Below, in pieces: positions 4,571 through 44,238 of a DNA stretch of 55,127 nucleotides (position 1 is the stretch's first letter; each line of letters begins with the position of its first letter). The position numbers were made by a program, and so were the translations under genes. This DNA is from a virus: the IMG/VR virus record IMGVR_UViG_3300045988_100944, one strand, 5' to 3'. The notes under the pieces are model-generated. The model was given only the letters and a program-made list of their open reading frames with translations. It was not told the origin of the DNA and did no database searches.

Positions 4571-5380
4571 CTATGCGCAATATTTAATTTCGTACTCGGA
4601 GACAATTTTTGAAAAAATCTCCCGAAGTTTCTTGTCTCCCTCAATCACATCAATTTTTCTGATACTATTGATTGCGGTTTTGGTCGCACCAGAATTTCCC
4701 ATCCTCTGCTTCATGTTTCTAAGCCTTGTGCCTAAGTCGCATCCGGCTCTTTGTTCCAATTCTGAATACAGTTGGGTATTCAATGTTTGAAAATCAATTT
4801 TGGAACTAAACTGAACACGTTTAATTTTTCTGTTAATCTCAATCCGCCAATTATCCAGTACAGGTTTAACAGCTTCCTTAATTGTTTCTGTAGTTTCAAC
4901 CGCCTTTTTCGCTGTTTCATTCGCAAGTGCAATCTGCCTGTCTCGCTCTTTATCTTCCAACTCTTTATTGGCGATGCTTTGAGCCAGTTTTAAGATAAGC
5001 TGTGTTTCCGGCGATAATTCCTCATTGACAAGCCGCCTTGTCTTAAAATATCCGTTCACAAGCTGTCTCTGAACCGTCCATGCCAAATCGTCCGTAAATG
5101 ACTTGACTAACATCAAATATCCCTGTTCTGTTAGAAGAATTTTGTTTGTAAAATCATTGTCAGATATAGGAAACATGCGGCTTGTACGAATTTCGTCCGC
5201 ACTAACAACGAAATAATCTTCTCCATCAATAAATCTATTTCTGTTAGAATTAAAATTTCTTCTCGCCGTTCCCTCAGGTCTTTCATGGACCATATCAACA
5301 TCTTTCAATGTTACAACTCTTTGCCCTCGATATTCCTTTACCGAAATATCAGTATTTTGGATATGAACCAAATCGTGCAT
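4571..5380 (-). CDS. ORF6N/KilA-N-type DNA-binding protein (antirepressor-like), paralog 1
   Basis: VKEYRGQRVVTLKDVDMVHERPEGTARRNFNSNRNRFIDGEDYF...TEQGYLMLVKSF; paralog at 8053..8724. Confidence 0.75.
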   Translation of the reverse strand: MHDLVHIQNTDISVKEYRGQRVVTLKDVDMVHERPEGTARRNFNSNRNRFIDGEDYFVVSADEIRTSRMFPISDNDFTNKILLTEQGYLMLVKSFTDDLAWTVQRQLVNGYFKTRRLVNEELSPETQLILKLAQSIANKELEDKERDRQIALANETAKKAVETTETIKEAVKPVLDNWRIEINRKIKRVQFSSKIDFQTLNTQLYSELEQRAGCDLGTRLRNMKQRMGNSGATKTAINSIRKIDVIEGDKKLREIFSKIVSEYEIKYCA

Positions 5381-5436
5381 TGCACCATTCCTTTCTGTGT
5401 TATAATTTCCTTATCAAATAATAAGGAGGTGAATTT

Positions 5437-5628
5437 ATGGAAAAACGAATCATCAAATGTGATAACCTTTCGGAATCCCAGATAAACCAAATCATTTCAG
5501 ATTATGAAAAATGCGGTTGGCGATTTATCGGTATTTCAGAAGGATTTCCGCCGGACTATCGATGGATTCATTTAGAGTGGTCTAAAGACCGACCTCCGAT
5601 TTTTCCCGAAACAGAACCCAACAGTTGA
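5437..5628 (+). CDS. Hypothetical small protein (63 aa)
   Basis: AAGGAGGTG RBS; TGTTATAAT upstream at 5396-5404; 3' end overlaps convergent ORF. Confidence 0.55.
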   Translation: MEKRIIKCDNLSESQINQIISDYEKCGWRFIGISEGFPPDYRWIHLEWSKDRPPIFPETEPNS

Positions 5629-5776
5629 TTCCTTCCGTATTTGGCGTGAATATTACCCTGTAGGCTCTTTTCAGTAAGTCGTTTCTATCTTTTTCTGTAT
5701 GCGCTATAGCGATACACTGAATAGAGCCTTTAGAAGTAAAATCCACTATGGTTTTCCCGAATTTTCTTTCTTCCAT
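5582..5776 (-). CDS. Hypothetical small protein (64 aa)
   Basis: ORF track 5582..6037 trimmed to MEERKFGK behind GGAAGGAGGTG. Confidence 0.5.
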   Translation of the reverse strand: MEERKFGKTIVDFTSKGSIQCIAIAHTEKDRNDLLKRAYRVIFTPNTEGINCWVLFREKSEVGL

Positions 5777-5865
5777 CGTTTCACCTCCTTCCCTGTTTTG
5801 TGGTATAATCCCTTTAAAAAGGAGATTTTCAAAATGTTTCATGATTACGATAGAATCAATAAAAT

Positions 5866-6192
5866 ATGCAGAGCAACTTAGATGCCATGTCCCCAGATTA
5901 TGAAGAAGGTAAAAGCCCTCTTGAAATGATGGAACACCAGACGGCTTTTCTTGAGAAAACATCTCATGAACTCCGCAATCTTGCTGATTCTGCAAAATCT
6001 CAAGCTGAATCTGCCAAAGCAGTCGCGGACAGTTCAAAAATTCAAGCTGATGCAGCCATCGAACAATCCAAATTAGCGAAGGAAACGGCGGAATCGTCCA
6101 GAAAATATTCCAACATTTCTGTCATAACATCCATTGTTTCCATCACAATTAGTATCGCAGCCATCATATTACCCTTGATATTGAAATCATGA
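5866..6192 (+). CDS. Tail-anchored coiled-coil membrane protein
   Basis: ADSAKSQAESAKAVADSSKIQADAA helical repeats then C-terminal TM ISVITSIVSITISIAAIILPLIL. Confidence 0.55.
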   Translation: MQSNLDAMSPDYEEGKSPLEMMEHQTAFLEKTSHELRNLADSAKSQAESAKAVADSSKIQADAAIEQSKLAKETAESSRKYSNISVITSIVSITISIAAIILPLILKS

Positions 6193-8025: not shown

Positions 8026-8055
8026 GGGGCTTTTATTAGCCCCCTTTCCTTTTTA
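8026..8055. terminator. Terminator shared by convergent genes
   Basis: GGGGC/GCCCC stem then CTTTCCTTTTT. Confidence 0.6.
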
Positions 8056-8724
8056 CCTGTAGGTGATTCTCTCGATACGGTCCAAAATTTTGTCCGCATC
8101 CTGCTCTAACTCTGGGAAATATTTTACAATATCAATCGGGTATTCCGGATAATTCCCGACCTCGTTCTTGTAAATCTCCCTTGCTGCGTTCAAATCGTAT
8201 CGTTCGGAAAGTCGATTCAAGATACAATGATACAGATAACTGCGGCTGTTTCCGCTGTCTCTGCAAAGTCGGTACATCCTGCCCTTGTTCCTCTCGTACC
8301 AGTCAGATACAATCGGCACTCTGGGCGTGAAATCCTCTGCGAGCGGTTCTTTGTAATATGGCTCTTTCTGCACCGCTCTGACCTTGAAATATACATCTAC
8401 AAGCATATCCTGTACTTTCCAAGATAGAGCGTCATTAAACGATTTTGCAACCAATAAGTACCCTCTTTCAGTCAATACCGTTATCCCTTTATTCGGAACA
8501 ACAATATTTCTATTAAGACAATTTGTCACATTAGAATTTTGCTTTTTCAAAACATAGAAATGTTTGCCCTCTACGAAATATTTTTTGTTTCGATTGAAAT
8601 TTCTATATGCTGTTCCACTTTTATTCTGATGTACCGTATCAATGTCTTTGAATGTCACAACCCTTTCGCCGTTGTACTCTCTGATTTGCATTTCGGTGTT
8701 TTCGATTGTAATAACGTCATTCAT
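8053..8724 (-). CDS. ORF6N/KilA-N-type antirepressor-like protein, paralog 2
   Basis: IREYNGERVVTFKDIDTVHQNKSGTAYRNFNRNKKYFVEGKHFY...TERGYLLVAKSF. Confidence 0.75.
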   Translation of the reverse strand: MNDVITIENTEMQIREYNGERVVTFKDIDTVHQNKSGTAYRNFNRNKKYFVEGKHFYVLKKQNSNVTNCLNRNIVVPNKGITVLTERGYLLVAKSFNDALSWKVQDMLVDVYFKVRAVQKEPYYKEPLAEDFTPRVPIVSDWYERNKGRMYRLCRDSGNSRSYLYHCILNRLSERYDLNAAREIYKNEVGNYPEYPIDIVKYFPELEQDADKILDRIERITYR

Positions 8725-11787: not shown

Positions 11788-11810
11788 ACCGCCAGAAGGC
11801 GGTTTCGACT
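11788..11810 (+). terminator. Plus-oriented hairpin, near-copy of terminator 13152-13176
   Basis: ACCGCC/GGCGGT stem then TTCGACTT; preceded by CCTACCCAA. Confidence 0.4.
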
Positions 11811-12085
11811 TAATCAGCTAAAATTGACCTTGCGGTGTTAAAAACGTAAAGTCTGTTGTGCGGATGGTGCTTAAAATCTCCATTGCTTTTTATCCTTTCC
11901 CCGATATTTTCATATTTAAGACTGACAACGATTAAATATTTTTCAAGCATTTCATCAGAACATTTTAAGCAGTTAATCGCATTTTGGATGCTGCTTTTAT
12001 TACTATTCCAGTAAATACCTTCGATTCTGCATTTCTTTTCTTCCTGTAATTCGTTAAATTCTTTCATTAAATCTTTCTTTGTCAT
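11810..12085 (-). CDS. Hypothetical early protein
   Basis: ORF track 11810..12115 trimmed to MTKKDL behind AAAGGAG. Confidence 0.55.
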   Translation of the reverse strand: MTKKDLMKEFNELQEEKKCRIEGIYWNSNKSSIQNAINCLKCSDEMLEKYLIVVSLKYENIGERIKSNGDFKHHPHNRLYVFNTARSILAD

Positions 12086-12166
12086 TTTCATTTCTCCTTT
12101 TTCGTCTGCCATCATCAGAGCCGGGAGACTATCCCACGGCTGACGGTCATTCTTGACCGTTTCGGC

Positions 12167-12328
12167 TCAATCCTCAAAAATTATTTCTGTAAATTCCTTC
12201 GGTGTAACAGATTCAATTTCGACGTTTTCTTTTTTCAAATCCGCAAGTCTTTTAGCGTTGCTATATTTTTTAAAATATTTAACGCCATTAAATCCATAGT
12301 TTAAAAATACGATGTAAAGCTTTACCAT
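12167..12328 (-). CDS. 53-aa first gene of the leftward operon
   Basis: Own translation MVKLYIVFLNYGFNGVKYFKKYSNAKRLADLKKENVEIESVTPKEFTEIIFED; GGAGGAAATAAC RBS. Confidence 0.5.
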   Translation of the reverse strand: MVKLYIVFLNYGFNGVKYFKKYSNAKRLADLKKENVEIESVTPKEFTEIIFED

Positions 12329-12371
12329 GTTATTTCCTCCTTCGTTGTCCCTTGTTGTTTTCTATGGTCTT

Positions 12372-12400
12372 ATATTATCATATTTAATTAGTAATGTCAA
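12372..12400 (-). promoter_or_regulatory. Leftward early promoter
   Basis: Minus strand TTGACA, 17 nt, TAATAT. Confidence 0.6.
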
Positions 12401-12475
12401 TACATAAATGCAAAATTAAATAAAATATTATTTCAAAAATAATGTAAATAATTTAAATTAAGTTTTATATAATAA

Positions 12476-12504
12476 TTGACTTATTCATTGCATTATTGTA
12501 TCAT
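12476..12504 (+). promoter_or_regulatory. Rightward early promoter
   Basis: TTGACT, 17 nt, TATCAT. Confidence 0.55.
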
Positions 12505-12549
12505 TTAATTATATCAATAATAATGCGTATTAAATGGAGGTATGCAATC

Positions 12550-13146
12550 ATGGCAAAGAGTGAAAAGGAAATGATAGAAAAATACAAGGCAAGGATGAAA
12601 AGACAGAATGAAAAGATAAAGGAAAACTATGACAGAGTATCCGCAACGCTTCCGAATGGCACCATAGACAGAATAAAGGCTTTAGGGCTGACGATTAACG
12701 GCGTAATTAATGAAAGCGTGCTTGCATATCTGGACTGCATGGAAGAAGCGCAGGCAGAGGAAGAACAGAACAACGCAGAAACCGCAGAAATACAGGATTC
12801 TACACCAGATACAGAAGCAGTTGAGATTGCCCCTGTAGAGCCGGAAACGTCAGAACCGTTCAATCCCATACCCGATGCGGAAACACCCGACAGCACGCCC
12901 GAAAACGGCTTGAAACCGATGACTATTGAGGATATTCAAGCCATGTTCGATAACAGGAAAACAGACGAAATCAGACAGGAGGAAGAAAGACAGGAGCGGA
13001 AAGAACAGGAGGAGCAGGAGCGGCGCAAGCTGCTAGCCAATCCAGAATATGCCGCCACCTATGCCCAGCTTATGGCGATGGAGACCGCAGAGAAGGAAAA
13101 GAAACGAGCCGAGATGCTCACCAGAGCGAGATTAGAAACATTGTAA
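12550..13146 (+). CDS. RHH-like N-terminal domain protein with acidic low-complexity tail
   Basis: Trimmed to MAKSEKEM behind GGAGGT; YDRVSATLPNGTIDRIKALG; E/Q/P-rich C-half. Confidence 0.6.
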   Translation: MAKSEKEMIEKYKARMKRQNEKIKENYDRVSATLPNGTIDRIKALGLTINGVINESVLAYLDCMEEAQAEEEQNNAETAEIQDSTPDTEAVEIAPVEPETSEPFNPIPDAETPDSTPENGLKPMTIEDIQAMFDNRKTDEIRQEEERQERKEQEEQERRKLLANPEYAATYAQLMAMETAEKEKKRAEMLTRARLETL

Positions 13147-13151
13147 ACCTG

Positions 13152-13176
13152 ACCGCCAGAAATGGCGGTTATTTTT
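13152..13176 (+). terminator. Intrinsic terminator
   Basis: ACCGCC/GGCGGT stem then TATTTTT. Confidence 0.7.
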
Positions 13177-13204
13177 CCATATTTTACCATTTATCTATCT
13201 TTGT

Positions 13205-15317: not shown

Positions 15318-15548
15318 ATGAGAATTTTGAGCCAAGATAGAACAGCTTCCATTGATGAAAGTGGAGTATTGCTGTTGGTTTCTGAAAACTATGTTGTAGC
15401 CGCTTTTCCTATCGAAGAAGTTGGCCTCATACGTCTTGGAGGATATAAGAACAAAGAGCGGGCAATGGAAGTGCTTGCAGACATTCACACTCTGTATGAA
15501 GAACTCCCCTTCTCTGGCAGTACAGTTTTTTATATGCCAAAGGAGTGA
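15318..15548 (+). CDS. MRI-SQ family small protein, paralog a
   Basis: MRILSQDRTASID...FYMPKE; GAAGGAG RBS. Confidence 0.6.
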   Translation: MRILSQDRTASIDESGVLLLVSENYVVAAFPIEEVGLIRLGGYKNKERAMEVLADIHTLYEELPFSGSTVFYMPKE

Positions 15549-15550
15549 GC

Positions 15551-15787
15551 ATGATGATAACGATTATTAGTCAAGATAGAAAGCATTCTGTTGGCAAGGA
15601 TAAATTTCATAGAATAGATATTTTTAGACACGGGAAAGAAATCATTGCAGAAAAAGACAGGGAGCGAATACTACTTGGTCGCTATACGAAAACAGAGCGG
15701 TCTTGTGAAATATTCCAAAAATTATGCCTTGTCATAAGGAAAGACATTCCGAATTGTGGTGACTTTTTCTATATGCCGAGATATTAA
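15551..15787 (+). CDS. MRI-SQ family small protein, paralog b
   Basis: MMITIISQDRKHSV...FFYMPRY. Confidence 0.6.
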   Translation: MMITIISQDRKHSVGKDKFHRIDIFRHGKEIIAEKDRERILLGRYTKTERSCEIFQKLCLVIRKDIPNCGDFFYMPRY

Positions 15788-15911
15788 ACTCTGATATGTA
15801 CCCTGTTTGTTGCGCTTGCCTTTGAGCGGTTTAGTTCATGACTGTACGGCGATTATGGCAAGAAACAAGGCGGCTATAGACGCTGATTTTCGGACGCAGG
15901 GTCTTATATAT

Positions 15912-15982
15912 GCACCAGTAGTTTAATGGCAGAACATCAGCCTTCCAAGCTGAATAAACGGGTTTGATTCCCGTCTGGTGCT
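15912..15982 (+). tRNA. tRNA-Gly (UCC)
   Basis: Hand-folded cloverleaf: acceptor GCACCAG/CTGGTGC, anticodon arm TCAGC-CTTCCAA-GCTGA, T arm ACGGG-TTTGATT-CCCGT (T-loop non-canonical). Confidence 0.7.
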
Positions 15983-16165
15983 TTTCATCGGATTTTTGGA
16001 CATTTTTCCCGATGAATAACACGACCTTTCACCCGCTAGGGGAATCCTGTTAAGAGCCATCGCACGGCTCGGTGGGTTTTTGGCTTGTATGCCGATGGGG
16101 ACTGGCAACAAGACCAAACACCAACTTCATATTTGGGGCGTTTTAACGGCATCACGCCCCACTCT

Positions 16166-16239
16166 GGATTCTTAGCTCAGTTGGTCAGAGCATCCGGCTC
16201 ATAACCGGACGGTCCTCGGTTCGAGTCCGAGAGAATCCA
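16166..16239 (+). tRNA. tRNA-Met (CAU), elongator type or Ile2 (lysidine)
   Basis: GGATTCT/AGAATCC acceptor, TAGCTCAGTTGGTCAGAGC D arm, TCCGG-CTCATAA-CCGGA, CTCGG-TTCGAGT-CCGAG. Confidence 0.9.
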
Positions 16240-16593
16240 TTTGCGGTCTTTCGGTATCATGGTTTATCGCAATCATTGGTTCTGCTGACTGACCGTATGA
16301 TTCGGGGTCGCTCCCCTCCGTGGAAATCGGACGGAACACAAACCGATAGGAATTGTGACACATCGGAGAGCAACGATGCGGGATGCTCAGGATGGCATCA
16401 ACAGGGTATGGACGCTACCAACATACTTGGAGTGATGAAAACTGCGTTCAAGTCAGTCCGTTTTGCTGGTTTCGTGACTGACATTAAACTCAAAACTGAA
16501 AAATCATGATGGGGATTGGATAGAAACTTGATTTAGGTGAGGTCGATTCGGATTTCACTATTAGAGATGGTGTCTTTTAAATCCCCATCCTCT
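16240..16593 (+). ncRNA. Candidate structured RNA between tRNAs (family unassigned)
   Basis: No credible ORF; many stems e.g. GTCAGTC 16452-16458 / GACTGAC 16476-16482, CCGAT/ATCGG, GATGC/GCATC. Confidence 0.3.
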
Positions 16594-16685
16594 GCCAACA
16601 TACCGAAACGGTTATAACGGCGTGGTCTTGAAAACCATTGTGTCGGTTAGAATCCGACATGGGGGTTCAAATCCCTCTGTTGGCG
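16594..16685 (+). tRNA. tRNA-Ser (UGA), class II
   Basis: GCCAACA/TGTTGGC acceptor, GTGGT-CTTGAAA-ACCAT, long variable arm GTCGG-TTAGAAT-CCGAC, GGGGG-TTCAAAT-CCCTC. Confidence 0.85.
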
Positions 16686-16705
16686 TTTGGGTTCACGATG
16701 AAAAC

Positions 16706-16816
16706 CTTACTCGCAACCTTATGGGTTAAAATCGTTGTAAAAATGCGTGCGCCGAAAGCATTCTTTTAGGTCTGCGATAAAGCGGGCCTACCCCGGGTTA
16801 TTAGCCTGCGAGTAGG
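16706..16816 (+). ncRNA. Candidate structured RNA closed by a 10-bp long-range helix
   Basis: CTTACTCGCA 16706-16715 pairs with TGCGAGTAGG 16807-16816; nested AATGC/GCATT and CGGG/CCCG hairpins. Confidence 0.3.
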
Positions 16817-16844
16817 CATAGGATAATTCAATTTTGAATTATGG

Positions 16845-16971
16845 TAGATGGTGGCGGAATAGGTAAACGCTTATATCTAAGAACTGATAGTGGTCGGGTA
16901 CAATATCGTACGGAGGACGCTGATAGGAATGCGGTTCATGTGTGGTGCAAATCCACACCCATCTAAGAGGT
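16845..16971 (+). ncRNA. Oversized tRNA-like element (about 127 nt)
   Basis: TAGATGG/CCATCTA acceptor-like, TG + GCGGAATAGGTAAACGC class-II D arm, GTGTGG-TGCAAAT-CCACAC T-like arm; no canonical anticodon arm. Confidence 0.3.
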
Positions 16972-17029
16972 CTGGTCGCACCAGAATAGAGTGTTGGTTG
17001 CGTAAATCCCACTTGAATTAAAAAAATGC

Positions 17030-17076
17030 CGATGGCAGATTGGATGTACCCCTTTCTGCCTATCGGAAACGCACAA
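17030..17076 (-). terminator. Minus-oriented terminator in a plus-strand region
   Basis: Minus strand CCGATAGGCAGA/TCTGCCATCGG stem then CATTTTTTT. Confidence 0.55.
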
Positions 17077-17119
17077 GTTATCCCGATTATTTGATTGAAA
17101 ACGAAAGGCGGTGTTTGCA

Positions 17120-17365
17120 ATGGCACAAGGCGTAAAAACCATAAGCAAGAGAAAATTCTTTGAAGCGTTTGAGGCGTTCTGTAGCGGACGGATGACACTT
17201 TCCAAAGCCGCGAGATATATCGGCATCAGCGTGCCTACTGCCTCTAAATATTTCAACATGTACATAAAGGGAGAACCATTTCCAGATACACTATTTGTGG
17301 ATGAAGACCGTCAAAATCGACTTGAACAGTCTGAGAAATATGACCGCAGACTATTCGGCAAGTGA
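17120..17365 (+). CDS. Small HTH protein
   Basis: Trimmed to MAQGVK; MTLSKAARYIGISVPTASKYF. Confidence 0.55.
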   Translation: MAQGVKTISKRKFFEAFEAFCSGRMTLSKAARYIGISVPTASKYFNMYIKGEPFPDTLFVDEDRQNRLEQSEKYDRRLFGK

Positions 17366-17406
17366 TAACGAATGATGAATATTTGCGATTTAAGGAGTTG
17401 TGAACA

Positions 17407-17682
17407 ATGAAACACAAAGAAGAATGGTACGTTTGTGATAGGTGCGGCAATAAATTTGACAGGCTCCCGCAAGATAAAATTTGGCTTACAAGAATGAAAA
17501 TGAACCATGAAGAATTTAAAGCGATATACGAAGAAACTGAGGGGTATATTTCAGATAAACATGAGCTAACAGGCGGTGTTTTATCTGTTGAGATAGAGGT
17601 ACGCTCCAGAAGAAGAGAAAAAATAATTCACTTATGCCCGAAATGCAGGAAAGATTTTGAGAGGTTTATGAACAATGAATAA
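17407..17682 (+). CDS. Zinc-ribbon protein (91 aa)
   Basis: CDRCGNKF ... CPKCRKDF; AAGGAG RBS. Confidence 0.6.
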   Translation: MKHKEEWYVCDRCGNKFDRLPQDKIWLTRMKMNHEEFKAIYEETEGYISDKHELTGGVLSVEIEVRSRRREKIIHLCPKCRKDFERFMNNE

Positions 17683-17818
17683 CTGCGATTTCATAACTTG
17701 CAGATACAACAAAGACGGTAAATGTAACGATATTGATAACCGAAAAGAATGTGTTAAAGTCGCAAGACTGGTATTATGCAAGGATTTTGCCTATGAGAGA
17801 GAAATCAATAACAGGTAA
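17675..17818 (+). CDS. 47-aa Cys-rich peptide
   Basis: Own translation MNNCDFITCRYNKDGKCNDIDNRKECVKVARLVLCKDFAYEREINNR. Confidence 0.35.
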   Translation: MNNCDFITCRYNKDGKCNDIDNRKECVKVARLVLCKDFAYEREINNR

Positions 17819-17978
17819 ATACATAGGAAACGCCATAGGATACTGTCACTGTAAGGCTCATGCTGGTGCGTTGAACAAGGAACTTGCTTACAAGCATAAA
17901 TGTATTGCTAAACGGTGTAAATGGCTTGAGAAGTACAATGATGAGGCGTGGAGAAGGAAAGAAAGGTATGTGAGATAA
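17793..17978 (+). CDS. Small Cys/His-rich protein
   Basis: ORF track 17733..17978 trimmed to MREKSITGKY...CHCKAH...CIAKRC. Confidence 0.4.
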   Translation: MREKSITGKYIGNAIGYCHCKAHAGALNKELAYKHKCIAKRCKWLEKYNDEAWRRKERYVR

Positions 17979-17981
17979 TTT

Positions 17982-18063
17982 GCAGTCATGGCGTAATGGT
18001 ATCGTAGCGGATTGCTAATCCGTCCGTCAAAATGATGTGTAGGTTCGATTCCTACTGACTGCG
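17982..18063 (+). tRNA. tRNA-Ser (GCU), class II
   Basis: GCAGTCA/TGACTGC acceptor, GCGGA-TTGCTAA-TCCGT, variable arm CGTCA-AAA-TGATG, GTAGG-TTCGATT-CCTAC. Confidence 0.85.
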
Positions 18064-18078
18064 TCAAGGAAGGAGAGT

Positions 18079-18369
18079 ATGATGCACATGAAAAAAATTT
18101 GTTTCTTGGTAGCAATAGGTTTCGCTTTAGTTTGCGGAATGACTGGTGCTGCAACTCTTGGCAAAATGATTGCAAATGCTAGAAACGATGCAAAAGGAGG
18201 ATTGCAGAGAACCATTACTGTGTATACAGCGGATGGCAAGAAAATAGCAAATTATGAAGGGAAAATTGATATCGAGACCACCAGTGGCGGTTATGTTAAA
18301 TTTGATTTTGACGGAAAAAGATATATTTACTACAACTGCTTTGTGGAAACTATTGCAGACATAAACTAA
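18079..18369 (+). CDS. Small secreted/membrane-anchored protein (DUF5052-like from memory)
   Basis: N-terminal KKICFLVAIGFALVCGMTGAA; TVYTADGKKIANYEGKIDIE...FDFDGKRYIYYN. Confidence 0.55.
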   Translation: MMHMKKICFLVAIGFALVCGMTGAATLGKMIANARNDAKGGLQRTITVYTADGKKIANYEGKIDIETTSGGYVKFDFDGKRYIYYNCFVETIADIN

Positions 18370-18473
18370 AAACAATTACCGACTAACAATTTGGAAGTTA
18401 GCCGCTAACCCTAAACATCTGAGGGCAAAGGATTTTTGCACCTTTGCTTATTTGAGCGGAGGTGCTTTTTTTA

Positions 18474-20216
18474 ATGGCAAGTTTTGAATTGATAAGTGCC
18501 GTACAGGACTACGAGAAATACATAGAAACAAATGGAATCAATGAGCAGGTTATTGATGCGTATTGCGAAGCTGCCAAAACCGCTGCTACGAATGAGAAGG
18601 ATATTGAGTACGGTCTTAAAATATCAAAAAGGTGTAAGGAAATCATTGAAACCTTTTGCGTTGATACTTCTGGAGGCACAATTTGGGATTTAGAAAAATA
18701 CGCTTTCAAAGAAAAAGTAAGCTATGAAATTATAGAAAAATTTTATTCCGTCTTACTGATAGAAGCGCAGAATAAGGTTGTCGATAGTTTCTTTCGTTAT
18801 ATCGAACACAAAAGAGAACCGAAGGAGCGGTTTTATATGCCAAGGCGGAAACAGTTCTTAAAAATTGGTCTGGTAGATGCACTGCAAGGGATGATTGATG
18901 ATAAGTACGATATTCTGTGTATCAGCCTAATTCCTGGGGCCGGGAAAACGACAATCGAGAAATTCTTCAATGCCGCGATTATCGGTTGGTATCCGAAGGA
19001 CTTCAATCTGTTTTATTCTCATAGCGGTGATATTACCAGAATGTATTACGATGGCATGTACGATATTGTCACCAACGCGGATGAATACGCATGGAACGAA
19101 ATATTCCCTAACCTTAGCGTGACGAACACGAACGCCAAGATGGAGCAGTTTAATGTCGGGAAATATAAGCCGTTCCCCTCTGTTCAGTGTACATCCGTAG
19201 GTAGTAAGAACGCTGGTAAGGTTCGTGCATCGAAATTTCTGCTTGTTGACGATATGATAGGCGGTATCGAAGAAGCAATGAACCCTATGATACTTGATAA
19301 GCTATGGAACAAATACGCTGTTGACGCAAGACAGAGAAAAATACAGGACACTACGGGGCATAACTGCAAGGAGATACATATTGCTACCAGATGGAGTGTT
19401 CATGACGTTATCGGGCGCATACAGAATATGTATGAGGGCAACTCAAGGGTAAAGGTAATTGCGGTTCCTGACATTGACCCGATTACAGGAGAAAGCAATT
19501 TTGATTATGAGTTTTCCGGGTTCGATGTCGCGTTTTTTGAAGACCAGCAACTATTGATGGACGATATTTCCTACAAGTGCCTATATAAACAGGAGCCAAT
19601 TGAGCGCGAGGGTCTGGTATTCCCTGATGACAAGATACGCCGATACCTCAATCTTCCACACGGAGAGCCGGATATTATCACTGCACAGTGCGACACGAAA
19701 GGAAAAGGAACGGACTATTTTGTCCTGCCAATCCTGCAAAAATACGGTGATGACTACTACTGCGTGGATTGCGTTTGCGATAATACCGCAGACTATGAAA
19801 TGCAGTACGAAAACGCCGCAAATGCTATTGTCAATAATGGGGTTCAGGAGTGCGAATTTGAGCGAAACGCAGGCGGAGACAGGGTTGCTATGGAAGTGAA
19901 TAAACGTGTAGAGGCTAAGGGTTGGATTTGCAATATTACAGATACGCCTACCGAAACGAACAAAGAGGCAAGAATTTTCCAGTGTTCAAACTGGATTATG
20001 CAACACATTATTTTTAAAGACCAGTCCTTGTATACGCCGAAAGAACCATACGGCGTTATGATGTCACTTCTGAAACGATATTCAGTAAGCGGAAAGAAGC
20101 AGCTGGATGACGTTCCAGACGTATTCTCGAACTTCGCGGTCAGAATTACGAGGGGAGCCAGAACTGCAAAAGTAGAAGCAGCTATCAATCCGTTCAGAGG
20201 GGGTATGTCTTGGTGA
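18474..20216 (+). CDS. terL: Terminase large subunit
   Basis: Walker A LIPGAGKTT, Walker B FLLVDDMIGG, size and position upstream of portal. Confidence 0.9.
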   Translation: MASFELISAVQDYEKYIETNGINEQVIDAYCEAAKTAATNEKDIEYGLKISKRCKEIIETFCVDTSGGTIWDLEKYAFKEKVSYEIIEKFYSVLLIEAQNKVVDSFFRYIEHKREPKERFYMPRRKQFLKIGLVDALQGMIDDKYDILCISLIPGAGKTTIEKFFNAAIIGWYPKDFNLFYSHSGDITRMYYDGMYDIVTNADEYAWNEIFPNLSVTNTNAKMEQFNVGKYKPFPSVQCTSVGSKNAGKVRASKFLLVDDMIGGIEEAMNPMILDKLWNKYAVDARQRKIQDTTGHNCKEIHIATRWSVHDVIGRIQNMYEGNSRVKVIAVPDIDPITGESNFDYEFSGFDVAFFEDQQLLMDDISYKCLYKQEPIEREGLVFPDDKIRRYLNLPHGEPDIITAQCDTKGKGTDYFVLPILQKYGDDYYCVDCVCDNTADYEMQYENAANAIVNNGVQECEFERNAGGDRVAMEVNKRVEAKGWICNITDTPTETNKEARIFQCSNWIMQHIIFKDQSLYTPKEPYGVMMSLLKRYSVSGKKQLDDVPDVFSNFAVRITRGARTAKVEAAINPFRGGMSW

Positions 20217-42626: not shown

Positions 42627-42648
42627 CTACACCAATTTCTACACCAAT
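42627..42648 (+). repeat. Arm-type repeat cluster (2 x CTACACCAAT), overlaps int stop
   Basis: 42627-42636 and 42639-42648, same orientation as left cluster. Confidence 0.8.
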
Positions 42649-43766
42649 TTTAAGTTTTTTTCTATTGCTTCGATTTCCTCCAGTTTGGATTCATCCGTTA
42701 CATGAACATACAAATTCATCGTCATTTCAATTTTGCTATGACCTAGGATTGCTTGCAGCGTTTTAGGGCGCATGCCACTTTCTATACATCTCGTAGCGAA
42801 TGTGTGCCTTAGCAAGTGAATTGAGAACTTTCTCATTCCCAATCTATTGCAAATAGCATATATTCCTTGATTATACGCTGACTTTTGAATTAGATTTCCG
42901 TTTTTGTTCAGAAAAATATAATCTGCATACTGGATTGGAATAATTTTGTTTTGAGAATTCTTCTCTTTTTGACTATATAAAATATTGACAGCTTCTTTTG
43001 TAAGCGGTATCTCCCGATGCCCGCTTTTTGTCTTTGGTTCTCCGATTACAAACCCTTGTTTCGCGACCTCCGATGCACTTCTCTGTATTTTTATTTTTCG
43101 ATTTTTAAAATCTACATCAGACCACTTTAACGCAATCAATTCTCCAACCCGAATCCCGGTTTGCAGCACAAACGCATATCCATTATAAAATGATGATTTT
43201 TCTGATTCTTTTAAGAAAGTTTTTTGCTCATCAACAGTTAGTGCTTCTCGCGCTTCTGTTTTTTTACCACCAGTTGCTTTCACATTCCTTCTTACAGGAT
43301 TTCTTTCTATTAAATAATTTTCGACAGCACATTCAAAAACACTCCACATTAAATCTCTATGCACCTTAATGGTAGATGTCTTATGCCCTTCATTCATCAT
43401 ATTTAGTACTTTCTGACAATGAATCGGCTTTACGTCTTTTAATTCCATATTCCCAATAATTGGAGAAATAGAAAAGCTCCACATACTTCTGTAGTTTCTT
43501 TCTGTTATAATTCTTATGCTATCTCCCTTTACTTCATTTATCCAGTAGTCAAACCACGCATCGACTGTTGGAGAGTCAGAAAAGAACACATCACCATGTT
43601 CATCCTCAAACTGCGCATCTGCCATCCATGCCCTGCACTCCTGCAACTTATGAAAGTATTTCTGTTTTCGTTTTCCAGATTTTGTTGTAAAACGTCCTGT
43701 ATACATTCCGTCTTTCCGTTGGCTGATACCAACGCCTAATTCTTTACCTCTAAGGTCTTTTCCCAT
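42639..43766 (-). CDS. int: Tyrosine integrase
   Basis: ORF track trimmed to MGKDLRGKELGVGISQRKDG; C-terminal HLLRHTFATRCIESG...LGHSKIEMTMNLYVHV. Confidence 0.92.
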   Translation of the reverse strand: MGKDLRGKELGVGISQRKDGMYTGRFTTKSGKRKQKYFHKLQECRAWMADAQFEDEHGDVFFSDSPTVDAWFDYWINEVKGDSIRIITERNYRSMWSFSISPIIGNMELKDVKPIHCQKVLNMMNEGHKTSTIKVHRDLMWSVFECAVENYLIERNPVRRNVKATGGKKTEAREALTVDEQKTFLKESEKSSFYNGYAFVLQTGIRVGELIALKWSDVDFKNRKIKIQRSASEVAKQGFVIGEPKTKSGHREIPLTKEAVNILYSQKEKNSQNKIIPIQYADYIFLNKNGNLIQKSAYNQGIYAICNRLGMRKFSIHLLRHTFATRCIESGMRPKTLQAILGHSKIEMTMNLYVHVTDESKLEEIEAIEKNLKLV

Positions 43767-43836
43767 CGTTACACACCCTTTCATTTTGAGAAAAGCCCCA
43801 TACAGCGTCATATTACCATACAGGGCTAATTTCTGT

Positions 43837-44238
43837 CTATATCTCAACAGTATTTTCAATAAACTTGTCAAATTCCTTTCGCTTAATGAGCTTTCTGTTC
43901 CCGTTTGTAAGGGCGAAAGTGCATCTTGGGTTATTCGCAAGTTTTCTGAGCGTTGCCGTTCCGATATTGCTATAGGCGGACGCTTCATCAATCGTCATTG
44001 TAACTTTCTGCCAAATCGGTACTTCTGGTTTCGACATATCCTCAATCCTTTCTATTTTCTTATAAATCTTCCTCAAAATGCGATTCACCGTAGATGATGA
44101 TATTTTCATCGTGTCCGCTATATAATCAATAGGGGAACCGTTACTGGACAGTTGAAATACCATCATCTCATCCTCGGTAAAATTGGCGTTCTCGATAATT
44201 TTTCGCAATTCTGGCTTTGTCAAATCTCGCAAAGCCAA
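43837..44238 (-). CDS. xis: Excisionase-type HTH fused to sigma-r4/LuxR-like HTH
   Basis: TTG start behind AAGGAGG; N: ADTMKISSSTVNRILRKI; C: MTIDEASAYSNIGTATLRKLANNP...LIKRKEFDKFIE. Confidence 0.7.
   Translation of the reverse strand: MALRDLTKPELRKIIENANFTEDEMMVFQLSSNGSPIDYIADTMKISSSTVNRILRKIYKKIERIEDMSKPEVPIWQKVTMTIDEASAYSNIGTATLRKLANNPRCTFALTNGNRKLIKRKEFDKFIENTVEI

What the first reader, a model, noticed from the sequence alone, without database searches (positions are those of the whole stretch)
15788..17119. 1.3-kb ORF-free island of tRNAs plus dense unexplained RNA structure between terS and terL
No credible ORF exists here; the track ORFs lack an RBS and read as junk. The stretch is visibly more G+C-rich than its flanks. 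Three canonical tRNAs in one orientation occupy only about 240 nt. The remainder is full of helices:
- GTCAGTC/GACTGAC at 16452-16482.
- A 10-bp long-range helix, 16706-16715 with 16807-16816, enclosing nested hairpins.
- A 127-nt tRNA-like element.
- Further stems.

Large ornate RNAs of the GOLLD and ROOL classes are known to lie next to tRNA genes in Firmicute prophages. GOLLD variants can have a tRNA embedded in them. This island could be a member of one of those classes or a new large phage RNA.
Basis: partly seen in the sequence, partly recalled or inferred. Interest (0 to 1): 0.7.

Follow-up and report, generated by a model that had tools for sequence, protein, structure and literature searches.

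The report
Phage tRNA array with tRNA-like RNAs
The ORF-free stretch is not one giant RNA but a string of small RNA genes in a gut phage: three normal tRNAs, a leucine-tRNA-derived "scaffold" RNA carrying a swappable structured insert, a small three-helix motif and several hairpins; the scaffold RNA and the motif recur in over a hundred related phages and match no Rfam family.

Summary
The observation largely holds. 15788-17119 has no conserved ORF, is richer in G+C than its flanks, and carries three co-oriented tRNAs totalling 241 nt.

The GOLLD/ROOL reading fails:
- No Rfam family other than tRNA matches, even at E<=10.
- Segments of the island are gained, lost or swapped independently among 19 close relatives.

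Two elements are real, conserved structured RNAs:
- **Three-way-junction motif (16031-16077).** It lies about 45 nt behind the first tRNA, after a hairpin and before a U-run. 11 of 14 pairs covary. It occurs in more than 140 phage loci.
- **tRNA-like RNA (16846-16965, 120 nt).** It keeps the acceptor stem, D-arm and T-arm of a phage tRNA-Leu, but a 71-nt insert replaces the anticodon and variable arms. Two conserved hairpins follow. I found 89 unique relatives (205 instances, 29 insert types); none has an anticodon arm, and nearly all sit in co-oriented tRNA arrays.

Three further hairpins are more stable than chance; the other spacers are unsupported.

Most likely this is a co-transcribed tRNA/small-RNA array cut up by host tRNA-processing enzymes. 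That function is inferred, not shown.

The parts
15788..15911 (+). Leader upstream of the first tRNA. It is conserved in most close relatives and replaced by unrelated sequence in three. No supported structure or promoter.
   Evidence: Alignment; z = -1.6; no + strand promoter-like site here.
15912..15982 (+). tRNA-Gly (UCC), without an encoded CCA.
   Evidence: ARAGORN; Rfam tRNA 68.9 bits.
15984..16016 (+). Hairpin directly behind tRNA-Gly: 8 bp (15984-15991 with 16009-16016) and a U-rich 17-nt loop.
   Evidence: z = -2.2. A hairpin at this place, with unrelated sequence, is found in 34 of 40 unique tRNA-to-motif spacers, median z -3.6.
16025..16085 (+). Three-way-junction motif. A CCUUUC flank is followed by P1 (16031-16036 with 16072-16077), P2 hairpin (16038-16040 with 16046-16048), junction GUUAAG, P3 hairpin (16054-16058 with 16066-16070) and a U-run (16077-16081).
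   Evidence: Covariance model R2 gives 44 hits in 89 loci, all on the tRNA strand. 97.2% of cells pair, 11 of 14 pairs show compensatory change, and 0 of 500 shuffles reach the score. More than 120 further IMG/VR contigs match a pattern scan. 102 of 147 instances start 44-65 nt after a co-oriented tRNA.
16086..16164 (+). Spacer with a G+C-rich hairpin (16134-16141 with 16154-16161) just upstream of the second tRNA. Weakly supported.
   Evidence: z = -1.4. One compensatory pair in a different helix, and broken pairs in L003.
16165..16240 (+). tRNA with anticodon CAU (Met type, or possibly Ile2), without an encoded CCA.
   Evidence: 72.3 bits. Similar phage genes are annotated as either tRNA-Met or tRNA-Ile.
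16242..16297 (+). Long imperfect hairpin directly behind the CAU tRNA.
   Evidence: z = -3.6, 0 of 200 shuffles as stable. Variation in 11 relatives is almost all pair-compatible, with one compensatory pair.
16299..16451 (+). 153-nt insertion present only in the window, L006 and L013. About 30 nt of other sequence lies here in the other 17 relatives. Nature unknown.
   Evidence: z = -1.3.
16452..16482 (+). It is present in all relatives but not beyond chance.
   Evidence: z = -1.4.
16508..16589 (+). Long hairpin module abutting the 5' side of tRNA-Ser. It is absent from 6 of 19 relatives.
   Evidence: z = -4.2, 0 of 200 shuffles. Inverted repeat I2. Indel pattern.
16593..16686 (+). tRNA-Ser (UGA), class II, without an encoded CCA.
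   Evidence: 51 bits.
16687..16845 (+).
   Evidence: z = -0.7.
16846..16965 (+). tRNA-Leu-derived tRNA-like element. Acceptor stem is 6 bp (16846-16851 with 16959-16964), followed by UG. The D-arm GCGG-AAUAGGUAA-ACGC starts at 16854. A 71-nt insert replaces the anticodon and variable arms. The T-arm is 6 bp with loop UGCAAAU (16940-16958). The discriminator is A16965.
   Evidence: No tRNA call by ARAGORN or Rfam. Frame helices: 9 of 15 pairs compensatory, 0 of 500 shuffles. Same D-arm and T-arm approach as a bona fide phage tRNA-Leu(CAA), L090:4188-4270. 89 unique relatives, 29 insert clusters. No anticodon arm in 0 of 89.
16966..17027 (+). Conserved 3' extension of the tRNA-like element: hairpin H1 (16971-16976 with 16980-16985), AUAG, hairpin H2 (16989-16993 with 17010-17014) with conserved loop UUGGUUGCGUAAAUCC, then an A-run (17020-17026).
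   Evidence: RNAalifold finds 8 of 15 pairs with compensatory changes. Model R1 scores above 80 bits in 30 of the 82 sources searched and 25-48 bits in many others, almost all on the tRNA strand.
17029..17066 (+). Stable hairpin between the RNA array and the next gene (start about 17121).
   Evidence: z = -3.6, 0 of 200 shuffles. One compensatory pair in relatives.

Best explanation
The island is a co-oriented array of independent small-RNA genes in a temperate siphophage of Lachnospiraceae-type hosts. It lies upstream of the packaging and structural genes.

**What it holds**
- Three canonical tRNAs without an encoded CCA.
- One chimeric RNA built on a phage tRNA-Leu frame. It keeps a 6-bp acceptor stem, a Leu-type D-arm and a 6-bp T-arm, so the 12-bp acceptor/T stack of a tRNA is preserved. 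A structured insert, which differs between close relatives, replaces the anticodon and variable arms.
- A roughly 50-nt three-way-junction motif placed behind the first tRNA, after a hairpin and before a U-run.
- Several long hairpins abutting the tRNAs.

**How it most likely works (inferred, not shown)**
- The array is transcribed as one or a few precursors.
- Host RNase P and RNase Z cut at the tRNA and tRNA-like ends. The CCA-adding enzyme completes them.
- The flanking hairpins insulate, stabilise or direct cleavage of the pieces.
- The tRNA-Leu frame gives its insert tRNA-like maturation and stability, as engineered 'tRNA scaffolds' do. The insert is the variable, working part.
- The three-way junction with its U-run acts as a structured 3' end (terminator or protective cap) for the first tRNA unit, or is released as a small RNA.

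**Shown:** the anatomy, strandedness, conservation, covariation and modularity. **Not shown:** transcription, processing, charging and any target.
For: - **tRNAs:**
- **Modularity:** independent gain, loss or replacement of five blocks among 19 relatives whose shared blocks are 81-99% identical.
- **Three-way junction:**
  - 97% of cells pair, 11 of 14 pairs are compensatory, and slid controls collapse.
  - All hits lie on the tRNA strand. G-U pairs are common, which would be A-C mismatches on the other strand, so the structure belongs to RNA of the + strand.
  - 102 of 147 instances lie 44-65 nt behind a tRNA.
  - The intervening spacer folds as a hairpin in 34 of 40 unique cases despite unrelated sequence. 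120 of 147 instances are followed by a T-rich stretch.
- **tRNA-like element:**
  - Acceptor strands 100-190 nt apart covary in 5 of 6 pairs. T-stem covaries in 3 of 6.
  - Its D-arm and the 'CAU' plus T-arm are the same as in a real phage tRNA-Leu.
  - Insert helices keep pairing through double changes within insert classes.
  - 186 of 205 instances have co-oriented tRNAs within 600 nt and none has an opposite-strand tRNA. tRNA-Ser is the upstream neighbour in 123.
- **Conserved 3' hairpins:**
- **Stable hairpins next to tRNAs:**
- **Host link:** a relative is a prophage in Lachnospira intestinalis.
- **Literature:** tRNA-Leu variants without anticodon and variable arms remain substrates of LeuRS if A73 and the D/T-loop contacts are kept (PMC9976931).
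Against: - There is no expression or processing data.
- No convincing promoter lies at the 5' edge.
- Several spacers (16086-16164, 16299-16451, 16687-16845) have neither thermodynamic nor covariation support, so part of the island may be filler.
- The three-way junction and the tRNA-like element are not more stable than shuffles on their own (z -0.3 and -0.7).
- The window's element has G at T-loop position 55, as do 57 of 89 relatives. The discriminator is not A in 19 of 89. Both argue against a conserved need for leucylation.
- The window's insert has no antisense target in the phage genome beyond chance.
- The instances of the tRNA-like element were collected by a script that required pairing, so the percentage paired is inflated. 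Compensatory counts are less affected by this.
Confidence: 0.55

Rival explanations
1. Cis-acting control elements. The junction motif with its U-run, and the hairpins, are terminators or attenuators. They meter read-through from the tRNA array into the late (packaging) genes and are not stable RNAs with functions of their own.
For: - A U-run follows P1 in most instances.
- The terminator scan flags an alternative hairpin, 16057-16075, followed by GTTTTT. It competes with P3/P1.
- A strong, conserved terminator-like hairpin that sequesters the Shine-Dalgarno sequence lies just before terL.
- The island lies upstream of late genes.
Against: - The strongly conserved loop and junction sequences (GGAAAG, GUUAAG, GUCRCAA) and the three-helix fold are more than a terminator needs.
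- The U-runs are short (2-5 U).
- The motif tracks a tRNA rather than a downstream gene.
- This reading does not explain the tRNA-like element.
Confidence: 0.2
2. Decay products. The tRNA-like element is a dying tRNA-Leu pseudogene that has accumulated insertions. The spacers are neutral debris from recombination between phage tRNA arrays.
For: - Frequent indels and block swaps.
- Several spacers lack any support.
- Non-canonical G55 and a variable discriminator.
Against: - The frame helices and the 3' hairpins are kept by compensatory change across phages whose TerL is only 72-99% identical, and in at least 177 loci.
- Insert helices covary within classes.
- The D-arm and T-loop sequences are nearly invariant while the acceptor sequences differ freely.
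- The junction motif shows 11 of 14 compensatory pairs.
Confidence: 0.12
3. Self-cleaving ribozyme(s) that process the tRNA 3' ends, in the manner of theta (HDV-like) ribozymes. The junction motif would be a new class.
For: - The motif sits at a fixed short distance behind tRNAs.
- The genome has a type II hammerhead at 12100-12167.
- Relatives carry RAGATH-type motifs.
- Theta ribozymes are known behind tRNAs in gut phages (PMC10879173).
Against: - A descriptor modelled on published theta sequences finds none in the window.
- No ribozyme family matches at E<=10 in the island.
- A hairpin separates the tRNA from the motif, so cleavage at the motif would not make the tRNA end.
- A trailing U-run is unusual for self-cleaving ribozymes, as PMC5737381 argues for other motifs.
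Confidence: 0.08
4. One large ornate RNA: GOLLD, ROOL or a new class spanning most of the 1.3 kb, with tRNAs embedded.
For: - G+C enrichment and the absence of ORFs.
- GOLLD and ROOL are known next to tRNAs in prophages (PMC5737381).
Against: - No match to either family.
- Independent presence or absence of blocks in close relatives.
- The only proposed long-range helix is not conserved.
- Only two modules are shared with more distant relatives, and there they occur in different orders and contexts.
Confidence: 0.03
5. An intron-containing or otherwise decodable tRNA-Leu. The insert would be removed, for example with the RtcB ligase that some relatives encode, to give a working tRNA.
For: - RtcB genes lie just upstream of terL in 7 relatives.
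- The insert sits exactly where the anticodon and variable arms would be.
Against: - 0 of 89 elements have an anticodon arm at the canonical place.
- An intron-after-37 model fits 3 of 89, against 4.1 expected in shuffles.
- In those three, covariation supports other pairings.
- ARAGORN with introns allowed finds nothing at normal thresholds.
- The window has no RtcB.
Confidence: 0.04

Closest known systems
Phage tRNA gene clusters with interspersed stable non-tRNA RNAs (for example the T4 tRNA region with its 'species 1 and 2' RNAs; recalled from memory)
   Same: Co-oriented tRNAs and small structured RNAs in one ORF-free block, presumably matured by host tRNA-processing enzymes.
   Different: The non-tRNA members here are a tRNA-Leu chimera with variable inserts and a three-way-junction motif. 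No sequence relationship to the T4 RNAs was tested.
GOLLD and ROOL large RNAs
   Same: Found beside tRNA genes in prophages of Firmicutes. Function unknown (PMC5737381).
   Different: Those are single RNAs of about 600-800 nt with conserved multi-junction folds. Here no Rfam match is found and the region is a mosaic of independent modules of 30-150 nt.
Theta (minimal HDV-like) ribozymes of gut phages
   Same: A small structured element tied to the 3' side of phage tRNAs in gut Caudoviricetes. Relatives of this phage also carry suppressor-type tRNAs.
   Different: The double-pseudoknot descriptor is not met. The motif here starts about 32-53 nt after the tRNA, not within 5 nt of it, and ends in a U-run.
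tRNA mimics that keep the tRNA 'top half': the tmRNA tRNA-like domain and bacterial or phage YrlA Y RNAs (recalled from memory)
   Same: Acceptor/T-arm stack and D/T elbow retained, the anticodon arm replaced by another domain, and encoded near tRNAs or RtcB in some genomes.
   Different: - tmRNA is about 350 nt with a tag reading frame. ARAGORN finds none.
- YrlA has its ends in the stem that replaces the anticodon arm and a closed acceptor stem. Here the ends are at the acceptor stem.
- No Ro/Rsr gene was seen among the 40 window proteins scanned.
Engineered 'tRNA scaffolds' for recombinant RNA (recalled from memory)
   Same: A foreign structured RNA is grafted in place of the anticodon arm, so that the chimera is processed and stabilised like a tRNA. 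This is the working analogy for the element at 16846-16965.
   Different: That is an artificial design. A natural use of the principle by phages is an inference here.
RAGATH, skipping-rope and int-alpA candidate RNAs
   Same: Orphan structured RNAs of prophage regions that also hold hammerhead ribozymes. They occur in the homologous islands of relatives.
   Different: None of these models matches the window's island, even at E<=10.

Membership tests
GOLLD RNA / ROOL RNA (Rfam) | Match to the family covariance model (sequence plus multi-junction structure) | tested here: not met
   No hit at gathering score on the whole window, nor at E<=10 on 15500-18500, both strands.
GOLLD RNA / ROOL RNA (Rfam) | One contiguous RNA of about 600-800 nt whose parts are conserved together | tested here: not met
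   Blocks are independently gained, lost or swapped in close relatives. The long-range helix is not conserved.
Canonical tRNA | Cloverleaf recognised by ARAGORN and Rfam RF00005 (for 15912-15982, 16165-16240, 16593-16686) | tested here: met
   (51-72 bits against a gathering score of 29).
Canonical tRNA (applied to the element at 16846-16965) | Anticodon arm: 5-bp stem and 7-nt loop with U33 and a purine at 37, at the canonical place | tested here: not met
   0 of 89 family members meet it. Any such hairpin anywhere in the insert occurs in 3 of 89, against 6.4 in shuffles. No RF00005 hit at E<=10.
Canonical tRNA (applied to the element at 16846-16965) | 12-bp acceptor/T-arm stack, D-arm with G18 G19, T-loop | tested here: met
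   6 + 6 bp, with 9 of 15 frame pairs compensatory. The D-loop is AAUAGGUAA. The T-loop is UGCAAAU, with G rather than U at position 55.
Bacterial tRNA-Leu identity set (A73; A15, G18 G19, A20a; G18:U55, G19:C56, U54:A58; anticodon not used), as summarised in PMC9976931 | Discriminator A73 and a Leu-type D-arm | tested here: met
   A16965 in the window, and A in 70 of 89 relatives. The D-arm equals that of phage tRNA-Leu(CAA) L090:4188-4270.
Bacterial tRNA-Leu identity set | G18:U55 tertiary pair; actual leucylation | tested here: inconclusive
   Position 55 is G in the window and in 57 of 89 relatives, and U in 32. Charging cannot be tested with these tools.
Theta / minimal HDV-like ribozyme | Nested double pseudoknot P1-P2-P3-P1.1-P4 with a catalytic C in J4/2 and a cleavage site within 5 nt of a tRNA 3' end | tested here: not met
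   A descriptor built from published examples finds no hit in the window and only signature-less hits in relatives. No HDV-clan hit.
tmRNA | tRNA-like ends plus a tag reading frame and pseudoknots | tested here: not met
   ARAGORN tmRNA search finds none. The element is only 120 nt.
YrlA-type Y RNA | Ends in a Ro-binding stem, closed acceptor-like stem, and an adjacent rsr (Ro) gene | tested here: not met
   The ends are at the acceptor stem. No TROVE/Ro protein is among the 40 proteins scanned, but not every ORF was scanned.
RAGATH-27, skipping-rope, int-alpA (Rfam) | Match to the family model | tested here: not met
   These are found in relatives' islands but not in the window.
Intrinsic (Rho-independent) terminator (applied to the junction motif) | G+C-rich helix directly followed by a U-run | tested here: inconclusive
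   P1 or the alternative hairpin 16057-16075 is followed by UUUUU. 120 of 147 instances have at least 4 T in the next 10 nt. The helix closes a three-way junction, and termination was not tested.

The most novel reading that the evidence does not exclude
Gut (Lachnospiraceae-type) phages carry a previously uncurated class of chimeric RNAs: a tRNA-Leu 'top half' used as a natural scaffold for fast-evolving structured inserts. I found at least 29 insert types of 60-150 nt, exchanged between near-identical phages. The class is encoded in class II tRNA arrays, usually just after tRNA-Ser.

The inserts would be effectors or decoys in the contest over host tRNAs, for example against defence enzymes that attack tRNA acceptor ends or anticodon loops. 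A second new motif, the three-way junction in tRNA trailers, would accompany them.
Probability: 0.3. Interest if true: 0.75.

Novelty: new variant of a known kind. Interest (0 to 1): 0.55.

Why it matters
Phage tRNA islands are usually annotated as 'tRNAs plus spacer'. Here two spacer elements prove to be conserved structured RNAs with strong covariation. They recur in more than a hundred gut-phage contigs and match no Rfam family.

If the tRNA-Leu chimera is processed like a tRNA, it would be a natural counterpart of the engineered tRNA scaffold. Its fast-changing insert would then point to an RNA-level arms race between phage and host.

There is also a practical point. tRNA finders miss all 205 instances, so these genes are invisible in current phage annotation.

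One caveat applies. A 2023 catalogue of about 10,000 predicted viral structured RNAs (PMC10690425) may already list them.

Tried and rejected
- **GOLLD, ROOL and all Rfam families:** nothing but tRNAs in the island.
- **ARAGORN at lowered thresholds, with introns, and in mitochondrial mode:** only inconsistent low-score calls.
- **Theta/HDV-like descriptor:** none in the window.
- **GenBank phage DNA search of the island:** only the tRNA-Met segment matches other phages.
- **nhmmer of 13 island segments against distant relatives:** only 16020-16100 and the tRNA-like element with its extension are shared.
not conserved.
- **RNAalifold on spacers 16687-16846 and 16086-16166:** essentially no compensatory changes.
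- **Pseudoknot between the CCUUUC flank and the P2 loop of the junction motif:** dropped. The flank stays the same where the loop differs.
- **Intron or anticodon-arm models for the tRNA-like element:** no better than shuffles.
- **Antisense target of the window's insert within the phage genome:** the longest exact complement is 12 nt, typical of shuffles. An energy-based scan timed out.
- **RtcB in the window:** absent.
- **RNA-handling enzymes among 40 window proteins:** none found. One metallo-beta-lactamase-fold protein near RecT is probably DNA-related.
- **Supplement of PMC10690425, to check whether the motifs are already catalogued:** not held.
Full report
**1. The observation**

The stretch 15788-17119 lies between a small ORF ending at 15787 and an 84-aa ORF starting at 17111/17121.
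- ARAGORN and Rfam agree on three + strand tRNAs inside it: Gly-UCC 15912-15982, CAU 16165-16240 and Ser-UGA 16593-16686, 241 nt together. A fourth, Ser-GCU at 17981-18065, lies outside.
- G+C is 0.44-0.53 inside against 0.36-0.42 around it.
- The longest frames are short. The 119-aa minus-strand frame over the 3' part is truncated in 8 of 20 relatives.

So the raw observation is correct.

**2. Is the structure more than chance?** Only in part.
- I folded twelve segments. Three beat all 200 dinucleotide shuffles: 16242-16297 (z -3.6), 16508-16589 (z -4.2) and 17029-17066 (z -3.6). One is marginal: 15984-16016 (z -2.2).
- The GTCAGTC hairpin (z -1.4), spacer 16687-16825 (z -0.7) and the rest are ordinary.
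- The 10-bp long-range helix 16706-16715/16807-16816 is not kept in relatives. Five pairs are broken in some sequences, and 305 of 500 shuffles do as well.

**3. Known families**

Rfam 15 gives nothing but tRNAs in the island, at gathering thresholds and at E<=10 with permissive filters on 15500-18500. GOLLD and ROOL are therefore excluded as far as their models can see. A descriptor for theta (HDV-like) ribozymes, built from published examples, finds none.

**4. Relatives**
- The large terminase (18462-20216; likely start ATG 18474) is 83% identical to that of Dulem virus 39.
- It retrieves 80 IMG/VR loci at 82-99% identity and 7 genome loci. One of these is a prophage in Lachnospira intestinalis.
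- Nineteen loci share the island at 81-99% nucleotide identity. They also show that it is a mosaic:
  - 16299-16451 is present in only 3 of 20.
  - 16507-16592 is absent from 6.
  - 15982-16077 is deleted in one.
  - The leader is replaced in three.
  - The middle of the tRNA-like element exists in two unrelated versions.

This modularity argues against a single large RNA.

Against more distant relatives, only two segments are detectably shared: 16020-16100, and the tRNA-like element with its 3' extension.

**5. The three-way-junction motif (16025-16085)**
- *Anatomy.* A CCUUUC flank is followed by P1 (16031-36/16072-77), UAG, a short P2 hairpin, GUUAAG, a P3 hairpin with a 7-nt loop, and a U-run.
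- *Covariation.* A covariance model finds 44 copies in 89 loci, all on the tRNA strand. On the 23 distinct sequences, 97.2% of cells pair and 11 of 14 pairs show compensatory change. No shuffle reaches the score, and sliding the partners by one column drops pairing to 44-48%. The alignment is model-fitted, which favours the structure, but the slid controls are decisive.
- *Strand.* G-U pairs are frequent, so the structure belongs to the + strand RNA, not to DNA.
- *Spread.* A narrow sequence pattern finds more than 120 further IMG/VR contigs.
- *Context.* In 102 of 147 instances the motif core starts 44-65 nt after a co-oriented tRNA: Gln-UUG 79, Gly-UCC 16. The spacer between them folds as a hairpin in 34 of 40 unique cases although the sequences are unrelated (median z -3.6). 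120 of 147 are followed by a T-rich stretch.

The unit is therefore tRNA, hairpin, junction motif, U-run.

**6. The tRNA-like element (16846-16965)**
- *Anatomy.* It has a 6-bp acceptor stem, UG, the D-arm GCGG-AAUAGGUAA-ACGC, a 71-nt insert, a 6-bp T-stem with loop UGCAAAU, the 3' acceptor strand and discriminator A. Six plus six pairs keep the 12-bp acceptor/T stack of a tRNA.
- *Origin.* The D-arm and the 'CAU' plus T-arm are those of a genuine phage tRNA-Leu(CAA), L090:4188-4270.
- *Family size.* Within the first 208 loci I found 40 unique relatives. After a wider scan there are 89 unique sequences and 205 instances in 177 loci, 107-200 nt long, with 29 insert clusters.
- *Covariation.* With the inserts removed, the frame helices show 9 of 15 pairs with compensatory change, and no shuffle reaches the score. 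The collecting script required pairing, so the 98.7% paired figure is biased. The covariation of acceptor strands 100-190 nt apart is not. Within insert classes, helices are kept by double changes.
- *Not a decoding tRNA.* None of the 205 is called a tRNA by ARAGORN. None of the 89 has an anticodon arm, and an intron model fits no better than shuffles.
- *Context.* 186 of 205 have co-oriented tRNAs within 600 nt and none has an opposite-strand tRNA. tRNA-Ser is the upstream neighbour in 123, as in the window.

**7. The 3' extension (16966-17027)**

Two hairpins and an A-run follow the element. Eight of 15 pairs in the T-arm/H1/H2 alignment are compensatory. Model R1 finds the arrangement in most relatives, almost always on the tRNA strand: 30 of the 82 sources searched score above 80 bits and many others 25-48 bits. 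Other members of the family carry other 3' modules.

**8. Context**
- The window is a temperate phage, with an integrase at 42639-43991, methylases, RecT, replication genes, and structural genes from 18474 on.
- A type II hammerhead lies at 12100-12167 on the minus strand.
- Homologous islands of relatives hold RAGATH-27, skipping-rope and int-alpA RNAs, hammerheads, suppressor-type tRNAs (anticodon UUA) and, in seven loci, an RtcB ligase gene just before terL. The window has no RtcB.

The neighbourhood is thus of the kind in which orphan structured RNAs and small ribozymes have been catalogued before (PMC5737381).

**9. Mechanism**
- *Shown.* The region is an array of independent, co-oriented small-RNA modules. 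Two are under selection for RNA structure, and one of these is a tRNA-Leu derivative without an anticodon arm.
- *Inferred from established knowledge of tRNA maturation.* The tRNA-like ends make the modules substrates for RNase P, RNase Z and the CCA-adding enzyme. The abutting hairpins insulate or stabilise them. The tRNA-Leu frame acts as a carrier for the variable insert.
- *Charging.* tRNA-Leu is one of the few tRNAs whose synthetase ignores the anticodon. Variants lacking the anticodon and variable arms remain chargeable if A73 and the D/T-loop contacts are kept (PMC9976931). But G55 in 57 of 89 members and a non-A discriminator in 19 of 89 argue against a conserved need for charging.
- *Target.* The window's insert has no antisense target in the phage genome beyond chance. 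Any target would be a host molecule or a protein.
- *Junction motif.* I cannot separate three roles for it: terminator-like 3' end, protective cap, or released small RNA.

**10. Verdict**

It is a phage tRNA array that also encodes members of two conserved RNA families not represented in Rfam 15. It is not a GOLLD/ROOL-like giant. Novelty is qualified, because a large catalogue of predicted viral structured RNAs (PMC10690425) could not be checked for these motifs.

Noticed in passing
window 12100-12167 (-): Type II hammerhead ribozyme (Rfam 59.5 bits, gathering score 37). It overlaps the start of the minus-strand ORF 11810-12115. Dulem virus 39 has one too (L001:1863-1927).
   Followed up: partly
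window 18415-18482 (+): A 12-bp terminator-like hairpin (18438-18465) followed by T7 lies immediately before the terL start (ATG 18474). Its 3' arm contains the Shine-Dalgarno sequence GGAGGTG. It is conserved in 14 diverse relatives, with mostly wobble-compatible changes. An upstream GGCARAGG could pair with its 5' arm as an anti-terminator. This may be a leader switch for terminase expression.
   Followed up: partly
window 17981-18065 (+): A fourth tRNA, Ser-GCU, lies outside the stated range among small ORFs. The tRNA region therefore extends to within 400 nt of terL.
   Followed up: no
L001:8460-9665; also L003, L015, L030, L034, L036, L062 at about 4700-5906: An RtcB RNA-ligase gene sits just upstream of terL in seven relatives, at the place where the window has the 96-aa ORF 18079-18369. 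This suggests tRNA repair is part of the island's biology.
   Followed up: partly
L028:1595-1666, L038:2683-2756, L039:3037-3108, L080:2219-2290 and others: Thirteen relatives carry a tRNA with anticodon UUA (ochre-suppressor type, odd loop AUUUAUU). In L028 an int-alpA RNA match follows directly (1670-1737). I did not examine whether these phages recode TAA.
   Followed up: no
L001:6033-6116; L032:3160-3260; L025:5397-5497: RAGATH-27 and skipping-rope RNAs (Rfam gathering-level hits) occur inside the homologous tRNA islands of relatives.
   Followed up: no
window 12600-13200 (+): A segment with G+C about 0.5 and very strong A-over-T skew (0.34-0.53) lies inside ORF 12496-13146, next to an A+T-rich (G+C 0.23-0.27) divergent region at 12150-12600. 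Unexplained.
   Followed up: no
window 16299-16451 (+): A 153-nt block is present only in the window and two relatives. It predicts a multi-hairpin fold, but z is only -1.3, and no homologue was found among the distant loci.
   Followed up: partly
L030:684-773, L035:3220-3308, L049:2834-2922 and similar: Several relatives have 85-90-nt genes called tRNA-Ile (UAU) with an enlarged anticodon/variable region. A 96-nt tRNA-like gene (for example in L035, T-arm at about 3862) also occurs. Non-canonical tRNA-like genes other than the Leu-type family are common in these islands.
   Followed up: no
L029, L030, L082, L155 (directly 3' of their tRNA-like elements): One class of 3' extension begins UUCCUUAUCUCCACUUAG. 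This resembles the 5' flank, P1 strand and UAG of the three-way-junction motif, but is followed by a single hairpin. It may be a reduced relative of that motif.
   Followed up: no
window 4571-5380 (-) and 8053-8724 (-): Two ORF6N-domain proteins (antirepressor-like) and an AAA_15 ATPase (690-2624) lie on the minus strand in the left arm. They are unrelated to the finding.
   Followed up: no
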